From NCBI GenBank assembly GCA_903877385.1, contig CAIRDP010000023.1:3723-67722 (forward strand): a stretch of DNA of 64,000 bases. The letters run 5' to 3'. Below the pieces are notes generated by a model. That model was not told the origin of the DNA. It did no database searches and worked only from the letters and a program-made list of their open reading frames with translations. Positions 8,445-36,858 of the stretch are shown piece after piece (position 1 is the stretch's first letter; every line of letters starts with the position of its first letter). This DNA is from an uncultured Bacteroidales bacterium (GTDB taxonomy: Bacteria; Bacteroidota; Bacteroidia; Bacteroidales; FEN-979). Position numbers and translations under genes: made by a program.

Positions 8445-8792
8445 ATGAATATTAGTTTCTAAAAGAGTGTAAGACTATCCATTTCGACAGGTCACAATTG
8501 TCTGATGGGTTATGTAGAATAAAAAAGGCGCGGACTACAACATTATCTACACTCGTGGTACTGGTATACCATTACAGCAAATAAGTTAAGCCCACGCCAT
8601 AACGTGAGCGTTAACCTATTATCTCGCTGTAATTAGAAAGTTACCAGTTTTCGAGTGTGAGTATAATAGCTAACGCTTTTATTTTATGTGATTTCTACCT
8701 ATGTCATACAAAAATCTTTTAGTTAAGGTCAAATTTATAACAAATTCTAATTCACAGGTATAAACAATGTTCGTTCTATCGAAAAAAACAGA

Positions 8793-10049
8793 TTAATTCT
8801 CTGTAGTTGGCTCTTCCAACTGTTTCATCTGCTGATTCAACCCATCTGATGCAATACCTTCCACACGACCCCAGAAGGACAGTATTGATTGCTTTGCCTG
8901 AAAAATTTGGCTTTCTCTTTCTGAAAAACGTTTAATGGCTGAATCTCTGTCCTGTTGTAAGCTTCTGTCCATTTTCTTGAATGCGTCCAAGATGCCCAGG
9001 ATGTGATTCTTGAAGTCATTGGACAGCAGATAGTCATATAGCATCGACATCTTATCCCCCTTGTTCTGCTGACTCTCCAAGGCGGTAGATTGTTTTACCA
9101 AGCCATCACGCAAAAGCATTGTCAGCAATGGAATATCATCAAAGGGGCATACCCACACCCCATCCCTGAAATGGGTTTCTCCATTATCCTTTGGCATTGC
9201 ACGGGTGACAAGCACACATACATCAGCCTTCACGGTTCTGGCATCAGCCTTCAATTTGGATACCCAACCCTCGCTGAATGCCTGGGTCTGCTTCCGCTCA
9301 TATAAAATCACACCCGACTGGGCACCCACATTGTTTTTGACGACGTGGTATACATCCGCCCCACGTATGCCTGATGGCACGTCCTGGATATCGTCGATTG
9401 GGTAAGTTTTGCGTAGGAAATCCCTGAGCTCGATCTCCGTGACCTCTCCAGTCAGCTTGTTTGACCCCTGTTCCAGTTTCTGCTGGGTTTCTTCCAGCCG
9501 CTTCTGCAAATCTTCGATGAGCTTATCACGTTTCTGGACATCCAGCTTTGATTTCTCCGATTCCGACGTCTTGATCTTCTCCCGTTCCTGGGCAAGCAAT
9601 TCCCCAAACTTCTTTTCGGATTCGGCTTCAATGGATTCTTTCAGTTCATCCTTTTCACGCTTCAACTGGGAAACGAGAGCCTTGGTCTTATTGAGTTCTT
9701 TGAGTTGCTCCGACTTGGTATTGAGCTCCGTTTCCAACGCCAGCAATTGACTTTCTTTCTCAGCATCTATCTGTTTGCGCAGGTTCTTTTCCAATGCGCC
9801 TTTCTCCACGGACAGCTTTTGCTTCACGGCAGCATCCACCTGAACCTGCAAATCTTCCTGCGCCTTTTCGAGCTTCTCCCTCTCCTGTTGAAGCTGCTGG
9901 GTTTTTTCTTTGAACTCCTTGTCCTTTTTGGCAATCTGGGCTTCAAAGTCTTTCTTTAGCTGCTCCTGAACCTGGTGGAACAGGACATCGCTGACGTTGA
10001 TTGGTTCACCACAATTGGGGCATTTGATGGTATTCGATTCTGGTTCCAT
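8793..10049 (-). CDS. DUF2130-family protein (zinc ribbon, long coiled coil, C-terminal nuclease-like domain)
   Basis: IKCPNCGEPINV..., ~170 aa E/K/Q-rich coiled coil, then RGADVYHVVKN...GVILYERKQTQAFSEGWVSKLKADARTVKADVCVLVTRAMPKD, typical of DUF2130. Confidence 0.7.
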   Translation of the reverse strand: MEPESNTIKCPNCGEPINVSDVLFHQVQEQLKKDFEAQIAKKDKEFKEKTQQLQQEREKLEKAQEDLQVQVDAAVKQKLSVEKGALEKNLRKQIDAEKESQLLALETELNTKSEQLKELNKTKALVSQLKREKDELKESIEAESEKKFGELLAQEREKIKTSESEKSKLDVQKRDKLIEDLQKRLEETQQKLEQGSNKLTGEVTEIELRDFLRKTYPIDDIQDVPSGIRGADVYHVVKNNVGAQSGVILYERKQTQAFSEGWVSKLKADARTVKADVCVLVTRAMPKDNGETHFRDGVWVCPFDDIPLLTMLLRDGLVKQSTALESQQNKGDKMSMLYDYLLSNDFKNHILGILDAFKKMDRSLQQDRDSAIKRFSERESQIFQAKQSILSFWGRVEGIASDGLNQQMKQLEEPTTEN

Positions 10050-10067: not shown

Positions 10068-10445
10068 TTATGAGTTATTACACTGTTCCACCAATTTTTT
10101 AAGCCTGTTGTAGACGAATTCCACCTGCACTTCCATTAGGCTTGCCTTGGTTAGTTCATTCGGCAATCCTTTATTTCCATAAGGCTCCCTGCTCATAACG
10201 AATCCATCAGGCTGTCGGCACAATGCCTCACAGAATAACGAATTCGATTGATTAAAAACGGGGTATGTAACCGTGCAGCGAATATTCTCAGTTGTTGCAG
10301 GCAGCTTTAACATTTCCAGCACCAGCAATTGATGGCGGATAAAAGAACGTATTAAATATGACCGTGGACATACACCACCAGAAAGAATTACCCTCCTGTG
10401 CATTTTCAAGACGATACTAATTTCTTGTTCTATAAGGCTTCCCAC
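10068..10445 (-). CDS. Small hypothetical protein, paralog 3 of a tandem triplet
   Basis: Shares RRVILSGGVCPRSY...TYPVF...VEFVYNRLKKL with the two upstream genes. Confidence 0.5.
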   Translation of the reverse strand: MGSLIEQEISIVLKMHRRVILSGGVCPRSYLIRSFIRHQLLVLEMLKLPATTENIRCTVTYPVFNQSNSLFCEALCRQPDGFVMSREPYGNKGLPNELTKASLMEVQVEFVYNRLKKLVEQCNNS

Positions 10446-10558
10446 TTATCTTGAATATGTTTTTGTATATTGAAGATTCAGAAAATTCCAGTATGCCAGA
10501 TGGCGAATGCGAGGTTTTAAAATGAGATTTGGTCATATATGCTTCCTTCCAACGGAAC

Positions 10559-10954
10559 TTATGAATTTAACTTCTGTATTGCCTTCCTAATCAAGTTCCG
10601 AAAGATAAATTCCGCCTTGTCACTGGTCGTGCCGAATTTGACGGCACCTTCGTGGAAACCTATGTCCTGGTTGCCATTAAACGCCCAGTCCAGCATCAAT
10701 TTTATGCAAAGCTTATTCGTCAACTCTTCCTTTGGCGCCCTCTTTGGGTCGATGGAACACGAAAACGGATACCTGAACAACAGGCGTCTGTTCTGACTGG
10801 TAGGTTCCAGTGCAAAAGCTGAGAGTATTTCATCCTGCCGCTGCGTGAAATCGAGGTAAAGCTTTGATGAAGCCGAAATCCCCCCAAGCATCGACACTTG
10901 TTGGTGGTCAGCGACGTGAAACCATATGTCTACCTTGGTTTGGACTAAGCCCAT
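10559..10954 (-). CDS. Small hypothetical protein, paralog 2 of a tandem triplet
   Basis: QVSMLGGISASSKLY..FTQRQDEILSAFALE...LFRYPF...AEFIFRNLIRKA aligns with paralog 1. Confidence 0.55.
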   Translation of the reverse strand: MGLVQTKVDIWFHVADHQQVSMLGGISASSKLYLDFTQRQDEILSAFALEPTSQNRRLLFRYPFSCSIDPKRAPKEELTNKLCIKLMLDWAFNGNQDIGFHEGAVKFGTTSDKAEFIFRNLIRKAIQKLNS

Positions 10955-10966
10955 AGTGTCTATGCT

Positions 10967-11365
10967 TTAGTATTTACCTTTCTGTTTCAAATATTCTGCC
11001 CTTTTGGTGAGCCGAAAGTACACGTGTTCTACCTTTTCGATTACGCTGAAACAGCCATAGCAATTGTTGGGATATCCAGATGCAAGGTAACACCCCAGAA
11101 AGTATTTTCCACCCATAGAGTTGAACTCCGCCAGGGTTTCCACAGCGATTTTGTTAAGAAGGTGGTTAGCCTGAAAGGGATAGGAAAATAACATAAGGTA
11201 ATGCAGGGGGCGCTGTTCGAGGTTGAAATAAGCCAGCACCTCATCCTGCGTTTTCTGGAAGTTGTTGTAGAACCTGGAATTTGGAGATATTCCGCCACAG
11301 AAAAATATTTCCCGCTGGGTTTCCAGCAGCAGTCTGATTTTCTCTTTGGCTTCGTTTGGGGTCAT
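10967..11365 (-). CDS. Small hypothetical protein, paralog 1 of a tandem triplet
   Basis: REIFFCGGISPNSRFY..FQKTQDEVLAYFNLE...LFSYPF...VEHVYFRLTKRA. Confidence 0.55.
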   Translation of the reverse strand: MTPNEAKEKIRLLLETQREIFFCGGISPNSRFYNNFQKTQDEVLAYFNLEQRPLHYLMLFSYPFQANHLLNKIAVETLAEFNSMGGKYFLGCYLASGYPNNCYGCFSVIEKVEHVYFRLTKRAEYLKQKGKY

Positions 11366-11589
11366 ATTGTGATCGTTTCAGATCATAAAAAAACACCAAT
11401 GAATTTAAGATTGGCGTTTTCTTTTAAGTCCTGATCTTCAAGCACAAAGATAGGCAAAATTTATGACATAGCCAAATGTTTTTTCATTGTAATTGGCGGT
11501 TTATTGTAATATTTTCAGGTGGATTTGTTGTTTTGTAAGTATTTCATAGAAAATAGTGAAAGGTAGAGTTTGAAAATCGGAAGATGAAA

Positions 11590-14500
11590 TTAGTTTGTTA
11601 CTTCTAAAATTTCAACATAGTTGTCTAAATTACCGACCTTAACAATATCCCCAATTGAGTGCCCAAGAATTGAGGTTGCAAGGGGAGATTTGATATTGAT
11701 CTTCTGCACCCCTTCAGATGTTCCCAATTTGTTATTGGTTGTTTCAACTAGTTGAACAATAATGTCCTTGCCATTATTCACATATTTAACTTTGACCCTA
11801 CTTTTAAGTTTGATTTCGTCACTGAAAATTTTAAGCTGTTGAGGTTTTTGTTCTTCTAAGCGTTGAATAGATTCAACTTCTTTTTCGGTGTCGATGAAGG
11901 ATAATTGAGAAATATATGTATCAATATTCACAAAGTCATCCGTAAAAGCCGTGGAAATAGTAGAACTGTGAGTAGGACATTTTTTTTGTGTTGTTGTAAC
12001 GGTATCTTTAATAAAATGTACCAACCTCGCTGTTTCTCTTCCAGGGTTTTTCCACCAATTTGTACTCCAAATCCTATGAAATACAAATCCGTGACTTTCT
12101 AATATTTTTTGTCTAAAACTGTCATATAGGTATGCTTCCCTTTTTTCGTGATATTTTGCCCCATCACACTCAATAGCAATTTTTGGAACACCTTCTATTT
12201 TGGGGTCATAGACGATGTCGATTCTGAAACCAGCAAATTTGAATTGTGGTATTAATTTTTCTTCACCAAAGACATCCACCAACCTTTCGTAAACTTCTTC
12301 TTCAAATGGAGATTCCAAATCTCGATTTAGAACATTGATGCTTGTGTTTTTAGGGGCGTTCTCACTTAATGCAGTCAGAACAGAAAGTCTTAAATCACTA
12401 TTGCTTTCGCTGACGGCTTTGCTATATGCCAAATATGCATAAAAGATGGCTCTTTTATTATTCGACCCTTCAATCGTTAAGTATTCTTTATAATTAAGAA
12501 ATATTTGGGGTGGTATTGAAGAACATACATAGACTTTATATTTTGCCCTGGTAATAATAACATTTAGAAGTTTATATCCCTTGGAATGATTAAGCGGGCC
12601 GAATCTATGCGCAAATTTCCCGTCTTTCCCAACGCCATATGTAGTCGAAAGAATAACAACGTCTTTTTCATCACCCTGTATGTTTTCAAGATTTTTAATA
12701 AACGATTTATTACTTTTTGGGTCATCAAGCCCTAATTCTTGAATCTTCTCATTAAAGTGTGTGTATTTTTCAAACTTTTTTCTCTGACTAATTTTTGATA
12801 TTATTAGATTTCGCTGTGCTATATTGAAAGTGGCAACTCCAATTGTCGGGTATTCTCCATTTGGTAATCTATTAATGTTATTTTCTATTATTGATAATAC
12901 CATTTCGGCTTCTGCCTCATTTGTATGGTCAGAAAATGTTCCATTTACCTGAATATATTTAATAGGTACATATTCAAAGATGTTCGGTAATGGCATTAAT
13001 CTCTGATTATAAAAGGCATAGTTGGAAAAATCAATAAGATATGGATGTCTCGAACGATAGTGAAATTCCAACAATTTCTTTTCAAAATTTAATTCTGTTC
13101 CAAAGTCAAGCAAAGATTCACACGATAATAGGTTGTTGTCTTTGTCAACTATTATTTCTTCTTCTTCAATATCGTCTTCATCTTCGACATAGCCATCAAA
13201 GACTTTAGAAAAATAATTTGAAGGTGGCATTTGATGTTCGTCTCCTGCAATTATTATTTGTTTCCCTTTCAATATTGAGGGTAAATTATCTTCTAATCTA
13301 AGCTGACTTGCTTCATCAAACATTACAATGTCAAAGTACCCATTCATATGTTTAAATAAATTACAGCAAACATCGGGTGAGGTTAGAATAATTGGGAAAA
13401 AAGTTGTAAAAAGGTTTGTATCGAACTGCACAATTTGTCTTAATGATAATCTTTTGAACCTATTACTACTTCTTTTATTATAAATGTTTTCAACTGAAAT
13501 GTTATCATTACGGTGTTCAAACTCTCTGGTAGTGTCAATTTGTTTAGAAAACCAAAACTCTCGAATGTACCTTAACTGTTCTTTCCCAATGGCACTTAAA
13601 GATTTTTCAAGCTCTGAATGCTCATCGCTATTTGTAGGTAAATCAATGTTGGCGGAGTTCATTAATAACAAGTTCAAATAATGTATTAAAAAAACTTTTC
13701 TCCAATTAACCTTACTCTTCAATTCATTAATAACTTTTTTATTTTTCTCTGTTAACACATTAAAGAATTGATACCACTTGAACTCAATAGTAAAAAAGTC
13801 ATTCTCCCCGCTAAAATATTCTTTCTCCCGCGCTATTATTCTTTCTAAATCAATAAAAAGTGAATTAAAATTTGAATCGTGGATTATTTCTAAAGTGCAG
13901 CTATCAGAATTAAATCTGAGTATTAACCCCTTAGATTTTTCTTGAAGGTCAGCTAAATTAGGTAAGATCAAATCGGTTAACGGAATTTGTAGCCAATTGA
14001 TTTTTTCAAATTCATTTTGAATCTTAGAATTAAAATTCTTTTGAATCAAGTCGATATCTAATTCAATTCTTGAAAGTGATGATAACTTTTGGTTTAATGT
14101 CCCTTCGGGATTATATTCGTTGTCAATATCTTTGCTGCAATGAATATAATCAACAAGCTCTCGGAATTGTCTATGTAAGTCAACAACAAATTTTGAAACT
14201 TCGTCTTTAATTCTATTAAGCAAAGATAAATATTCAACTGAACTATTATCTTTAGTTAAAGCAATTTCTATGTTTTTAAATGAATCTTCAACATTTTCCT
14301 TTTCACGACTTGAACGAAGGTTAAAGTTTTCAAATTCTCTATCTGTTCTTTCTGCGAAACTGGATTTTACTTCAATTATTATCGAAGTAAACGACTCTAA
14401 GGTCTTCTGTTTAGTTTCAATTTGACCTGAAAAATCAAGAGTATCAAAATCTCTTGATTTAGAAATAGCAGTTTCAAGCTGGGTAAATAATACCTTTAGT

Positions 14501-16452
14501 TTTAAATTGTCAGAAATAATTGCTCTTTTTGATTGTGAGAATAATGACAATACTTTAAATGAAAATCTCCTAATTTTATCTTCGTTAAAAAAGTCGGGAT
14601 TCTGATAATTATTAGCAAATATTTCTTCAATTTTACCTATGAGATTGTGAAAATGTATAATTTGGGCAGATAACTCTGACTCTCGAAAAATACAATACTC
14701 ATATCTTAGACGCTGGATTAATTTTTCCAACTGTAGGAAATTATTTGTTATTGTTGTTGTTAATTGATGTATTCCAGCAATCTGCGCTTTAAGTTCCTCA
14801 ATTCTTAGGTTTATATATTCATTTCTAATTATTTCAAACAGAAGTTTAATAGATCCGATTTCTTTTCTATAATAATCAAAATCGTCAATAATTTTTTGCT
14901 CAATTAAATATGGGTTATCCCCTGAGAATTTCTTTGGGTTTATGAAAGATGTAGCTTCAATCTTCTTATATTCGTTATAAAGTTGCTGCCCTTTTTGCAC
15001 CAAACCCAGCGTAGTATTGAGTTCTTCCGATGTAAAATTAAAATGGGTTTTATCAATTTGCAGCGCATAGTCTTCATCCGCTCCTTTAAGTTCAAGTAAA
15101 AGTGTTCCAACAATGTCAGTCCAAGATTTATTACTTAGAAGTTTTTCATCAAGTTTTTTATGCTTTTTGTTTATAGAGATTATCAGATCTTTTGTCTTAC
15201 AGATCAAATTATCTAAAGATTCTTTTGAGAATGTGTAACGATAATGTTTATAGTCAGAGTTATCAACCCTATTTCGAACAGAATCAACAACCGTTCTTCT
15301 GTCTTTTACAATATCACGAATTAATACACAGTGAAAGTTGAGCCCTCTTTCAATTAGAGCGTTATGCAATACTTCTAATGCAGTTCTTTTTTCACAAACC
15401 ACAATTGTTTTTTTATTATTCTCTAAAGCATTTACAAGGATTGCTGTCAATGTTTGACTTTTACCTGTACCTGGGGGGCCTTGAATTAAGATATTCCGTT
15501 CGGATTCTAAAGAATGTAAAATGCTTTGCTGTGAAGGGTCTGTCTCAACAGAAGAAATCGGTTGAAAAGAATGTCCTTCGATACTGTCGAGGTTTATTGA
15601 TAGTCCTTCAAGCTCTAACAAATTTCCGTAATCATTAATGATATTTTGCTTCTGAACTTCAAAAATTGAAAACAATCCACCAAAATCAATAAAGGCGTTT
15701 GTTGAATTTAACGGTAATTTTTCATAATGAACTTTGTCACAAATTGGTGAAATATTTTCAAGTTTTTTCTTAAAAATATCCTTTATATCGCTTGGAACGG
15801 TTGTATTAATAGCTCTTAGAAGATTGTCGCATATTTCAATGAGTTCGTCTTTACTTATCAACCCATCGTCAAGCATTTCACTGGGTATTTGCTCAATCTC
15901 TATATTTGAATCATTTTGTAAATGATTAATCAACACTTCATTAAGATATATCGGGTCATCTTCGGTTCTGTTAATTTCCCACGTATTAAACTCTTTTGTT
16001 CTTTTGATTCTAAGAGCCCAGATTAAAACTGGTGCAACAGTCAATTTGTTATCAACTTGGTCTCGTCTAACCAGAATTGGGAAACCAAATCCAAAAGTGT
16101 TTATGCCTTTTTCTGATTCTATTGCTTCTGTTTGGTTGATTAAATTTTCAAACGCCTTTGTGATTCTAACTAATTGGTTTTGGTCTTCTTCAAATAGTGA
16201 GTTTAAATCGGGAACGTTTTCTTTCCAGCTAATTCTAAATTTTAATGGTTGTTCTGACAGGAGGGAATTAATGAAATTTGTCGGTAGGTTTTTATCTATA
16301 TATGATAGCCTGTTGAGGTCGAACTTGTAGCGAGATTTTGATGGAATAGCATTAAGATGAACACCTCTACGGTTACCGACTTTTAATCTCAATTGTAATT
16401 CAGTTAACAATTTCTTTGTCAGTTCCATTGTGGTAAATTTTGGTTTAGACAA
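11590..16452 (-). CDS. 1620-aa SF1 (Upf1/DNA2-like, DUF4011-type) helicase fused to a PD-(D/E)xK (DUF559/Vsr-like) nuclease and a GreA/GreB C-terminal-like domain
   Basis: Helicase motifs: Walker A LIQGPPGTGKSQT, motif II VMFDEASQL, motif III IIAGDEHQMPP, motif VI LNVIITRAKYKVYV. Nuclease core: FRIDIVYD...KIAIECDGAKYH...HRIWSTNWWKNP. Extreme C-terminus KINIKSPLATSILGHSIGDIVKV...YVEILEV resembles the GreA C-terminal domain. Confidence 0.85.
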   Translation of the reverse strand: MSKPKFTTMELTKKLLTELQLRLKVGNRRGVHLNAIPSKSRYKFDLNRLSYIDKNLPTNFINSLLSEQPLKFRISWKENVPDLNSLFEEDQNQLVRITKAFENLINQTEAIESEKGINTFGFGFPILVRRDQVDNKLTVAPVLIWALRIKRTKEFNTWEINRTEDDPIYLNEVLINHLQNDSNIEIEQIPSEMLDDGLISKDELIEICDNLLRAINTTVPSDIKDIFKKKLENISPICDKVHYEKLPLNSTNAFIDFGGLFSIFEVQKQNIINDYGNLLELEGLSINLDSIEGHSFQPISSVETDPSQQSILHSLESERNILIQGPPGTGKSQTLTAILVNALENNKKTIVVCEKRTALEVLHNALIERGLNFHCVLIRDIVKDRRTVVDSVRNRVDNSDYKHYRYTFSKESLDNLICKTKDLIISINKKHKKLDEKLLSNKSWTDIVGTLLLELKGADEDYALQIDKTHFNFTSEELNTTLGLVQKGQQLYNEYKKIEATSFINPKKFSGDNPYLIEQKIIDDFDYYRKEIGSIKLLFEIIRNEYINLRIEELKAQIAGIHQLTTTITNNFLQLEKLIQRLRYEYCIFRESELSAQIIHFHNLIGKIEEIFANNYQNPDFFNEDKIRRFSFKVLSLFSQSKRAIISDNLKLKVLFTQLETAISKSRDFDTLDFSGQIETKQKTLESFTSIIIEVKSSFAERTDREFENFNLRSSREKENVEDSFKNIEIALTKDNSSVEYLSLLNRIKDEVSKFVVDLHRQFRELVDYIHCSKDIDNEYNPEGTLNQKLSSLSRIELDIDLIQKNFNSKIQNEFEKINWLQIPLTDLILPNLADLQEKSKGLILRFNSDSCTLEIIHDSNFNSLFIDLERIIAREKEYFSGENDFFTIEFKWYQFFNVLTEKNKKVINELKSKVNWRKVFLIHYLNLLLMNSANIDLPTNSDEHSELEKSLSAIGKEQLRYIREFWFSKQIDTTREFEHRNDNISVENIYNKRSSNRFKRLSLRQIVQFDTNLFTTFFPIILTSPDVCCNLFKHMNGYFDIVMFDEASQLRLEDNLPSILKGKQIIIAGDEHQMPPSNYFSKVFDGYVEDEDDIEEEEIIVDKDNNLLSCESLLDFGTELNFEKKLLEFHYRSRHPYLIDFSNYAFYNQRLMPLPNIFEYVPIKYIQVNGTFSDHTNEAEAEMVLSIIENNINRLPNGEYPTIGVATFNIAQRNLIISKISQRKKFEKYTHFNEKIQELGLDDPKSNKSFIKNLENIQGDEKDVVILSTTYGVGKDGKFAHRFGPLNHSKGYKLLNVIITRAKYKVYVCSSIPPQIFLNYKEYLTIEGSNNKRAIFYAYLAYSKAVSESNSDLRLSVLTALSENAPKNTSINVLNRDLESPFEEEVYERLVDVFGEEKLIPQFKFAGFRIDIVYDPKIEGVPKIAIECDGAKYHEKREAYLYDSFRQKILESHGFVFHRIWSTNWWKNPGRETARLVHFIKDTVTTTQKKCPTHSSTISTAFTDDFVNIDTYISQLSFIDTEKEVESIQRLEEQKPQQLKIFSDEIKLKSRVKVKYVNNGKDIIVQLVETTNNKLGTSEGVQKINIKSPLATSILGHSIGDIVKVGNLDNYVEILEVTN

Positions 16453-36781: not shown

Positions 36782-36858
36782 TGGTCGGGATGAGAAGACT
36801 CGAACTTCCGACCCCCACGTCCCGAACGTGGTGCGCTAGCCAACTGCGCTACATCCCG
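36782..36858 (-). tRNA. tRNA-Pro (anticodon CGG), CCA encoded
   Basis: Folded by hand into a 77-nt cloverleaf: acceptor CGGGATG/CATCCCG, D stem GCGC/GCGC, anticodon stem CCACG/CGTGG with loop TTCGGGA, T arm GGAAG-TTCGAGT-CTTCT, discriminator A + CCA. Confidence 0.9.

What the first reader, a model, noticed from the sequence alone, without database searches (positions are those of the whole stretch)
10068..11365. Tandem triplication of a divergent ~130-aa protein family
Three consecutive minus-strand genes are clearly homologous but highly diverged. The shared blocks are:
- hydrophobic strand + GG[IV][SC][PA].S..Y: FFCGGISPNSRFY / SMLGGISASSKLY / ILSGGVCPRSYL
- F.[KQ].QDE[VI]L: present in two of the three
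- [SRT]YP[FV]
- a C-terminal [VA]E[HF][VI][YF].[RN]L helix

I can't assign the family. Tandem arrays of diverged small paralogs in mobile islands are typical of immunity-protein arrays (for example acquired interbacterial-defence clusters in Bacteroidales), anti-defence gene arrays, or specificity subunits.
Basis: seen in the sequence. Interest (0 to 1): 0.6.

Follow-up and report, generated by a model that had tools for sequence, protein, structure and literature searches.

The report
Orphan helical paralogs partnering DUF2130 nuclease
Three neighbouring genes encode old, diverged copies of a rare, undescribed small helical protein that usually sits just upstream of an uncharacterised DNA-cutting enzyme (DUF2130) on mobile DNA of freshwater Bacteroidales, so they are most likely helper subunits of that enzyme and not toxin-immunity genes.

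Summary
Three minus-strand ORFs, A (10967-11365), B (10559-10954) and C (10068-10445), are homologous: pairwise BLASTP E is 7e-12 to 2e-6 at 23-27% identity.

They are real genes. dN/dS is 0.06-0.36, and the DNA is identical in contigs of four lake metagenome runs.

The family is an orphan. It has no consistent hit in Pfam, NCBIfam, PHROGs or PADLOC and no PDB match. AlphaFold gives an all-helical fold for A and B with no Foldseek match. It is very rare: about 31 clusters among 1.84 billion representatives.

A, B and C belong to three old, well-supported clades. Arrays elsewhere hold one, two or three members in different combinations, so this is not a recent local triplication.

The recurrent partner is the next gene, a DUF2130 coiled-coil PD-(D/E)XK nuclease. 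It lies directly downstream in 8 of 11 loci that carry a full-length family member. DUF2130 itself usually occurs without the family.

The unit has its own conserved promoter and leader hairpin. The Hhe-like helicase upstream is a separate unit. No locus has a toxin or secretion gene.

My best reading, at moderate confidence, is that these are optional accessory (regulatory or adaptor) subunits of the DUF2130 nuclease on mobile or defence islands.

The parts
11445..11476 (-). Predicted Bacteroidetes-type promoter of the unit (TTTG-N20-TAtcTTTG)
   Evidence: Sequence read; pattern match and coordinates. The block is conserved in L001 and in L005/L054 although the upstream genes differ, and the homology begins at the -33 box. 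The same pattern lies 70-85 nt before the first family gene in L082 and L014. That this consensus is the Bacteroidetes promoter form is from my own knowledge; transcription was not tested.
11387..11420 (-). Leader hairpin with an A-tract before it and a U7 tract after it (terminator or attenuator-like), between the promoter and gene A
   Evidence: RNAfold gives -17.7 kcal/mol, z = -3.0, with 0 of 200 shuffles folding as well. L005 keeps the stem through two compensatory pair changes. Analogous hairpin plus U-run leaders occur in L082, L014 and L015. No Rfam match.
10967..11365 (-). Gene A: 132-aa all-helical protein, A clade of the orphan family
   Evidence: (pLDDT 76.8). dN/dS against orthologues is 0.06-0.11.
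10559..10954 (-). Gene B: 131-aa paralogue, B clade; starts 12 bp after A
   Evidence: (pLDDT 79.2, same helix topology as A). dN/dS is 0.16-0.36.
10068..10445 (-). Gene C: 125-aa paralogue, C clade, GTG start; 113 bp after B
   Evidence: C clade 100/100. Homology between the window and L001 stops at about 10460, just upstream of C, which marks a recombination joint.
8793..10049 (-). DUF2130 protein, 418 aa: N-terminal zinc ribbon, about 170 aa of coiled coil, C-terminal PD-(D/E)XK domain; starts 18 bp after C
   Evidence: Pfam PF09903, E = 7.5e-47. D232, E251 and K253 are invariant in an alignment of six relatives. DUF2130 is classed in the PD-(D/E)XK superfamily in PMC3424549. It is the recurrent downstream neighbour of the family.

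Best explanation
A, B and C are three old paralogues of an undescribed family of small (about 130 aa), cytoplasmic, all-helical proteins. Together with the next gene, a DUF2130 zinc-ribbon/coiled-coil PD-(D/E)XK nuclease, they form one self-contained transcription unit. That unit has its own promoter and a hairpin/U-tract leader, and it sits in a mobile island beside an independent Hhe/PDC-S37-type helicase-nuclease.

I infer that the small proteins are optional accessory subunits of the nuclease. The conserved N-terminal domain of about 65 residues (helix, GG turn, helix, F.LP.T..N) and the C-terminal helix would form a common scaffold or docking surface. The variable middle part would give each paralogue lineage its own specificity, either for what the nuclease is directed to or for what releases it. 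Cassette-like gain and loss of paralogues (one to three per locus) would then change that repertoire.

Shown here: the homology, purifying selection, the fold class, the rarity, the conserved synteny with DUF2130, the separate promoter and leader block, and the mix-and-match composition of the arrays.

Inferred only: physical interaction with DUF2130, the regulatory or adaptor role, and any defence function.
For: - **Homology and reality of the genes:**
- **DUF2130 directly downstream, same strand, 1-36 bp away,** in the window, L002/3/4, L005/L054, L018, L020/21, L080, L081 and L082. This holds across family members only 20-30% identical. In L018 the DUF2130 is so divergent that phmmer did not link it to the window's.
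- **Chance adjacency is implausible.** DUF2130 is roughly one gene per genome in only 47 of 401 genomes of the order.
- **A mobile block with its own promoter.** The promoter plus leader block is conserved with L005 although the upstream gene differs.
- **The helicase is not a conserved neighbour.** Upstream genes vary: Hhe-like, BrxL and others, a 684-aa orphan, a UvrD-like helicase, a transposase, a C5 methylase.
- **The nuclease triad D..ExK is intact**.
- **The N-terminal domain is modular.** It recurs at the N-terminus of a separate family of about 415 aa (hhalign probability 97%, E = 8e-11).
- **The arrays are mix-and-match.** The window is A-B-C, L002 is X-B-Y, L005 is A-B, and elsewhere single members occur.
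Against: - DUF2130 mostly lives without the family. None of the 54 other DUF2130 loci examined carries it, including the two closest relatives of the window's DUF2130.
- The family also occurs without an adjacent DUF2130 (L019, L014, L015). Genomes G328 and G347 have a family or domain hit but no DUF2130 hit at all.
- No interaction, expression or phenotype data exist, and no RNA run was found.
- The fold gives no functional hint.
- The loci with DUF2130 may share ancestry, so they are not fully independent.
- The 415-aa family that carries the same N-terminal domain is not next to DUF2130 in the two lineages I looked at.
Confidence: 0.4

Rival explanations
1. Establishment or counter-defence genes of the mobile element. 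The small proteins would inhibit host defences (or serve another element function), and DUF2130 would be the element's own recombination or repair nuclease. They would be co-transcribed because both are needed on entry, without forming a complex.
For: - All loci lie in mobile contexts: integrases, transposases, a TV-Pol element, a tRNA-Pro boundary (earlier notes).
- DUF2130 in L018 and L052 lies close to RadC and HTH genes, which by my own recollection are typical of conjugative-element accessory regions.
- Variable copy number and mix-and-match arrays resemble anti-defence gene clusters.
Against: - The proteins are mildly basic (pI 8.8-9.0), not acidic DNA mimics.
- No PHROG hit, and no B-type relative in 2.9 million viral contigs.
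- dN/dS is low, not arms-race-like.
- Nothing in this reading explains why the family is tied specifically to DUF2130.
Confidence: 0.2
2. Antitoxin-like inhibitors. DUF2130 would be a toxic nuclease kept silent by the upstream small proteins, as in a type II toxin-antitoxin or abortive-infection pair.
For: - A small upstream gene tightly coupled to a nuclease gene, with 1-36 bp spacers.
- A hairpin/U-tract leader that could set expression ratios.
- Orphan copies without DUF2130 (L019, L014, L015) could be anti-addiction remnants.
Against: - DUF2130 stands alone in all 54 other loci examined, including close relatives at 57-64% identity. It therefore does not need an antidote.
- No DNA-binding antitoxin domain was detected.
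- Three diverged antitoxins for one toxin would be unusual.
Confidence: 0.12
3. Immunity-protein array against interbacterial (T6SS or contact-dependent) toxins, like the acquired interbacterial defence clusters of Bacteroidales.
For: - Tandem diverged small paralogues in a Bacteroidales mobile island.
- Copy number varies between loci.
Against: - No toxin, Rhs, T6SS or PAAR gene in any of the 11 loci.
- No match to any immunity family.
- Cytoplasmic proteins without a signal peptide.
- The 12 and 18 bp spacers exclude rAID-type intergenic repeats.
- The consistent neighbour is a cytoplasmic nuclease gene.
- The source is freshwater or soil MAGs, not gut communities.
Confidence: 0.05
4. No functional link. 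The small genes are selfish or neutral cargo that happen to have been inherited next to DUF2130 from one ancestral island.
For: - Both partners occur separately.
- The family is tiny and confined to a few Bacteroidota lineages, so shared ancestry of the loci is plausible.
Against: - Adjacency persists while the small proteins diverge to 20-30% identity and the DUF2130 partner spans subfamilies.
- The flanking genes are completely reshuffled, yet the pair stays together with very short spacers.
- Purifying selection acts on A and B.
Confidence: 0.1

Closest known systems
DUF2130 / COG4487 (PF09903) coiled-coil PD-(D/E)XK nuclease genes
   Same: The downstream gene of the unit is a clear member: E = 7.5e-47 with D..ExK intact. 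Its class is listed as 'function unknown' in the PD-(D/E)XK survey PMC3424549.
   Different: No paper found in the search describes a small helical partner. In 54 other DUF2130 loci the family is absent. Earlier unchecked AI notes of this scan report DUF2130 paired with OLD, RloC, TrlF and RM genes, never with this family.
Nuclease effectors gated by a partner protein in defence systems, for example Hachiman HamA-HamB (PMC12278908 abstract)
   Same: The proposed logic is the same: a PD-(D/E)XK-type effector whose activity or targeting depends on a co-encoded partner, carried on mobile or defence islands.
   Different: The partner here is one to three 130-aa helical proteins with no NTPase or helicase domain. 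There is no sequence or fold relation, and nothing has been tested.
Type II toxin-antitoxin pairs
   Same: A small upstream gene tightly coupled to a downstream nuclease-like gene.
   Different: The 'toxin' is usually found without the small gene. No antitoxin DNA-binding domain is present. Up to three diverged upstream genes occur.
Acquired interbacterial defence (AID / rAID) immunity arrays of Bacteroidales (Ross et al. 2019, cited from my own knowledge)
   Same: Tandem small genes of variable number on Bacteroidales mobile DNA.
   Different: No toxin homologues, no known immunity families, no intergenic repeats. The conserved neighbour is a cytoplasmic nuclease gene.
Hhe (Gao et al. 2020, as named notes) / PADLOC PDC-S37 helicase-nuclease
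   Same: The 1620-aa upstream neighbour matches PDC-S37 (2e-137) and Hhe (4e-79), and carries DUF4011, AAA_11/12 and MTES_1575 nuclease domains.
   Different: It is a separate unit. The paralogue-DUF2130 unit has its own promoter, and it is found beside other genes elsewhere.

Membership tests
AID / rAID immunity-gene arrays | Genes are homologues of immunity proteins, or lie beside cognate toxin or effector genes or fragments | tested here: not met
   No Pfam, NCBIfam or PADLOC hit for the three proteins, no consistent Pfam hit among the 38 members, and only one weak PADLOC hit (PDC-M54A, E = 0.0058) among 39 members. No toxin, Rhs or T6SS gene in the 11 loci.
AID / rAID immunity-gene arrays | Conserved repeated intergenic sequence before each gene, and an associated tyrosine recombinase (rAID; from my own knowledge) | tested here: not met
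   The spacers are 12, 113 and 18 bp, which leaves no room for repeats before B or before DUF2130. An integrase is nearby only in some loci (L005).
Type II toxin-antitoxin | The toxin gene is accompanied by its antitoxin wherever it occurs | tested here: not met
   None of 30 DUF2130 loci in the order and none of 24 in named genomes has the family or a common small upstream gene.
Type II toxin-antitoxin | The antitoxin carries an HTH, RHH, AbrB or similar DNA-binding domain | tested here: not met
   No consistent domain hit in any member. The fold searches give only generic helical bundles at E >= 1.
DUF2130 (PF09903), downstream gene | Profile match above the gathering score, and the PD-(D/E)XK catalytic D...ExK | tested here: met
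   160.2 bits against a cut-off of 26.7. D232, E251 and K253 are invariant among six relatives.
HEPN domain (recurrent top weak fold hits) | Four-helix bundle with a conserved Rx4-6H motif | tested here: not met
   No conserved R/H pair in the 38-sequence alignment; the invariant or near-invariant positions are G24, G25, L49, P63 and L119. Foldseek E is 5.8-8.
DNA-mimic anti-restriction proteins (Ocr / ArdA type) | Strongly acidic surface (from my own knowledge) | tested here: not met
   pI is 8.84, 8.98 and 8.91. Most family members are neutral to basic.
Hhe / PDC-S37 (upstream neighbour only) | DUF4011 plus SF1 helicase core plus Vsr/DUF559-type nuclease in one polypeptide | tested here: met
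   An extra GreA/GreB C-terminal domain scores 2.5e-7.

The most novel reading that the evidence does not exclude
The small proteins are interchangeable trigger-recognition subunits of an undescribed modular anti-phage or anti-plasmid system. A shared N-terminal docking domain would plug one to three different sensor paralogues onto a DUF2130 coiled-coil nuclease. Cassette-like gain and loss of paralogues would retune what the nuclease responds to. A promoter-proximal terminator hairpin would keep the unit nearly silent until needed. This would also give the first functional handle on DUF2130, a widespread nuclease family of unknown role.
Probability: 0.15. Interest if true: 0.7.

Novelty: new variant of a known kind. 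Interest (0 to 1): 0.4.

Why it matters
DUF2130 (COG4487) is a widespread bacterial nuclease family. It is present in 12% of genomes of this order alone. The library search found no functional study of it: only four papers mention it, and none assigns a function.

A dedicated, co-transcribed partner family, even a rare one, gives an experimental entry point. One can ask what the nuclease binds, what restrains or directs it, and whether it acts in defence or in mobile-element biology.

The family itself is a clean example of a fold and sequence orphan. It has a modular N-terminal domain that is shared with a larger uncharacterised family of about 415 aa in Bacteroidota.

The significance is limited by the rarity of the family, by its restriction to uncultured freshwater, peat and soil Bacteroidota, and by the absence of any functional data.

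Tried and rejected
- **Family libraries.** Pfam, NCBIfam, PHROGs and PADLOC on the three proteins, and Pfam, PADLOC and PHROGs on all 38-39 members, gave nothing consistent.
- **PDB profile search.** Nothing.
- **Fold searches.** Foldseek of two AlphaFold models against PDB and BFVD gave only generic helical bundles at E >= 1. HEPN-like hits recurred weakly, but the motif is absent, so I rejected that assignment.
- **Named genomes and viruses.** B-type relatives in 185,579 species genomes and in viral contigs: none. The whole-family and A-type alignments were too divergent for the locus finder.
- **Phylum sample.** No other carrier among 400 genomes.
- **Helicase as the true partner.** Rejected. 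It is conserved only in L001, and the unit has a separate promoter.
- **Fusion proteins.** The C-terminal parts of the two proteins carrying the family's N-terminal domain (L013 419 aa, L016 239 aa) gave no Pfam or PDB match. My recollection that L013 resembled an alkyladenine glycosylase was not borne out.
- **Context of the 415-aa family.** Uninformative.
- **RNA evidence.** No RNA run is listed.
- **Rfam on the unit.** No match.
- **Repeat finder on the spacers.** The call failed on a strand argument and I did not repeat it.

Full report
**1. The observation**

ORF listing finds three consecutive minus-strand ORFs exactly where stated.
- A is at 10967-11365 (132 aa).
- B is at 10559-10954 (131 aa).
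- C is at 10068-10445 (125 aa, GTG start).

Pairwise BLASTP gives 23-27% identity, with E = 7e-12 (A/B), 2e-6 (A/C) and 4e-7 (B/C). The quoted motifs are all present in the three-way alignment. A profile of the family finds only these three copies in the 4.3-Mb genome.

The genes are under purifying selection. Nei-Gojobori dN/dS against orthologues in other loci is 0.06-0.11 for A and 0.16-0.36 for B.

The 4.5-kb stretch is identical, with no differences, in contigs assembled from four freshwater or lake metagenome runs from four studies. It is therefore not an assembly artefact.

**2. What the proteins are**

Family libraries give nothing consistent.
- Pfam, NCBIfam, PHROGs and PADLOC give no hit for A, B or C.
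- No family recurs when all 38-39 members are scanned singly.
- A profile search of PDB sequences finds nothing.

AlphaFold2, run with a 38-39 sequence alignment, gives the same all-helical topology for A (pLDDT 76.8, pTM 0.68) and B (79.2, 0.71). That topology has five parts:
- a long helix 1;
- the invariant GG turn;
- helix 2, then a short helix 3 after the F.LP.T..N motif;
- a poorly predicted variable middle region (about residues 68-104);
- a confident C-terminal helix.

Foldseek against PDB and BFVD gives no match better than E of about 1. Weak HEPN-type hits recur, but there is no Rx4-6H motif.

The proteins have no signal peptide or membrane segment and are mildly basic, with pI 8.8-9.0.

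The family is very small and very rare.
- 19 clusters turn up among 5.8 billion by the word-indexed search.
- 31 representatives turn up among 1.84 billion by exhaustive HMMER.
- In whole genomes it occurs in 5 of 401 genomes of the order, which is Bacteroidales according to the record titles of L058 and L059.
- It occurs in none of 400 other genomes sampled across the phylum.
- It was not found in viral contigs or in named species genomes with the B-type query.

**3. Not a local triplication**

A maximum-likelihood tree of 41 members puts A, B and C in three separate clades.
- The C clade has 100/100 support.
- The B clade has 100/99 support.
- A lies within a set supported at 98/90.
- A and B are sisters at 97/95.

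Each clade contains members from other loci. Array composition differs between loci:

| Locus | Composition |
|---|---|
| Window | A-B-C |
| L002 | X-B-Y, where X and Y are other lineages |
| L005, L054, L019 | A-B |
| L018 | single, C-like |
| L020, L080 | single, own clade |
| L082 | single, A-like |

Nucleotide homology between the window and its near-copy L001 (89%) stops about 15 bp upstream of C. This marks a recombination joint between B and C. The array is thus assembled from old paralogue lineages by cassette-like gain and loss.

**4. The conserved partner**

In the window the spacers are 12 bp (A to B), 113 bp (B to C) and 18 bp (C to the next gene). A 224-bp gap separates A from the helicase upstream.

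The next gene (8793-10049) is a DUF2130 protein (PF09903, E = 7.5e-47). It has an N-terminal zinc ribbon, about 170 residues of coiled coil, and a C-terminal PD-(D/E)XK domain. Its D232, E251 and K253 are invariant among six relatives. The PD-(D/E)XK survey lists the family as function unknown (PMC3424549). Only four papers in the library mention it at all.

I looked up the contigs that encode other family members.
- A DUF2130 gene lies directly downstream (1-36 bp, same strand) in L002/3/4, L005/L054, L018, L020/21, L080, L081 and L082. In L081 and L082 only the DUF2130 N-terminus is visible before the contig ends.
- With the window, that makes 8 of 11 loci that carry a full-length member. 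Some of these loci are related to each other.
- The exceptions are L019 (A-B followed by a LytTR response regulator), L014 and L015.
- L001 and L017 are truncated or degenerate.

The linkage holds while the small proteins diverge to 20-30% identity. In L018 the DUF2130 is of so different a subtype that phmmer at 1e-5 does not connect it to the window's.

The upstream and downstream neighbours are completely different from locus to locus. They include the Hhe-like helicase, BrxL and others, a 684-aa orphan, a UvrD/GajB-like helicase, a transposase and a C5 methylase.

DUF2130 is about one gene per genome in only 47 of 401 genomes of the order. Chance adjacency is therefore not credible.

The dependence is one-sided and partial.
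- None of 30 DUF2130 loci in the order carries a family member, even at E <= 10. Nor do the two closest relatives of the window's DUF2130 (G222 and G242, 57-64% identity) or any of 24 loci in named genomes.
- G328 and G347 have a family or domain hit but no DUF2130.

**5. A self-contained unit**

Upstream of A lies a perfect Bacteroidetes-type promoter pattern, TTTG-N20-TAtcTTTG, at 11476-11445. That this is the Bacteroidetes consensus is from my own knowledge.

It is followed by an A-tract, a 7-bp stem and a U7 hairpin at 11420-11387, and then by the ATG at 11365. The leader folds better than all 200 shuffles (z = -3.0).

This promoter plus hairpin block is conserved in L001 and in L005/L054 although the gene upstream differs. 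The homology begins at the -33 box. The L005 stem keeps pairing through two compensatory changes. Equivalent promoter, hairpin and U-run leaders with different stem sequences precede the first family gene in L082 and L014, and a hairpin plus U-run precedes it in L015. Rfam has no match.

The helicase (PADLOC PDC-S37 2e-137, Hhe 4e-79) is therefore a neighbouring, independent single-gene unit and not part of this operon.

The island itself has low G+C up to about 36 kb and ends near a tRNA-Pro gene. It also carries an IS4-family transposase, a C5 methylase and DUF5131.

**6. A modular N-terminal domain**

The first 60-70 residues of the family also occur at the N-terminus of larger proteins.
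- One is a 239-aa ORF in G347 (E = 3.6e-10).
- One is a 419-aa ORF in G222.

The 419-aa protein belongs to a family of 80 or more clusters of hypothetical proteins from Bacteroidota. About 40 of these match the family profile at residues 4-60. A profile-profile comparison gives 97% probability and E = 8e-11 over 68 columns. The contexts of that larger family are uninformative and lack DUF2130.

This shows that the N-terminal part is an independent domain. It is compatible with a docking or oligomerisation role but does not prove one.

**7. Mechanism**

The best-supported reading is that the small proteins are optional accessory subunits of the DUF2130 nuclease, regulatory or adaptor in role. 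They would be co-transcribed from a dedicated, probably attenuated promoter and carried on mobile or defence islands. The different paralogue lineages would provide different specificities.

Only the genetics is shown: homology, selection, synteny and unit boundaries. Interaction and function are inferred. I put this at about 0.4.

The rival readings are weaker.
- **Antitoxin model (0.12).** It is weakened because DUF2130 normally lives alone.
- **Mobile-element establishment or counter-defence model (0.2).** It remains open.
- **Immunity-array model (0.05).** It finds no support in any locus.
- **Pure hitch-hiking (0.1).** It is hard to reconcile with adjacency retained through deep divergence and complete reshuffling of the flanks.

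Earlier AI notes from this scan report DUF2130 recurrently coupled to defence NTPases such as OLD, RloC and TrlF, and to RM systems. I used these only as leads. They fit the contexts seen here (Hhe-like, BREX, UvrD-like and methylase neighbours), but I did not test them.

**8. Novelty and verdict**

Neither the family nor its pairing with DUF2130 appears in any library or paper I could search. In kind, a small accessory gene in front of a nuclease effector on mobile DNA is familiar, so I class this as a new variant of a known kind.

Interest is moderate (0.4). It offers a rare but clean handle on an uncharacterised, widespread nuclease family. It comes without functional data, and it is confined to uncultured Bacteroidota.

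Noticed in passing
window 11387-11476 (minus strand): A conserved Bacteroidetes-type promoter is followed, before the first gene, by a terminator-like hairpin with a U7 tract. It shows compensatory changes in L005 and has analogues in L082, L014 and L015. It could be an attenuator or a short leader RNA.
   Followed up: partly
window 8557-8614: An element of about 36-40 nt in the intergenic region 3' of DUF2130 also occurs, at 90-95% likeness, in several unrelated short contigs of runs X5 and X6. It may be a small dispersed repeat.
   Followed up: no
window 11590-16452 (minus strand): A 1620-aa Hhe/PDC-S37-type helicase-nuclease (DUF4011, AAA_11/12, MTES_1575 REase) carries an extra C-terminal GreA/GreB-like domain. 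In L001 the same gene is split into two ORFs and gene A is frameshifted. That could be decay or long-read assembly error.
   Followed up: partly
L013 1489-2745; L016 9011-9727: The family's N-terminal domain of about 65 aa heads a separate, more abundant family of about 415 aa (80 or more clusters) and a 239-aa protein. All are hypothetical with no Pfam match.
   Followed up: partly
L015 8887-9258 (minus strand): A bAvd-like / 23S rRNA intervening-sequence four-helix-bundle protein lies about 880 bp downstream of a single family member in G328.
   Followed up: no
window 36782-36858 and the G+C step near 36 kb: A tRNA-Pro(CGG) gene sits where G+C rises from about 0.36-0.44 to about 0.50. This is probably the boundary of the roughly 36-kb mobile island that holds the finding.
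   Followed up: no
L005 62-2116: A 684-aa protein with no Pfam or PADLOC match occupies the position taken by the helicase in the window, directly upstream of the conserved promoter block.
   Followed up: no
L018 4676-5478; L052 5884-6705: DUF2130 genes of two different subtypes each lie a few small ORFs away from a RadC-like gene and an HTH gene. This suggests a recurrent mobile-element accessory region.
   Followed up: no
G222 contig C14 (L053, L014, L013): A stand-alone DUF2130 next to an integrase, a single family member and an N-domain fusion protein all lie within about 22 kb of one another on one contig.
   Followed up: no
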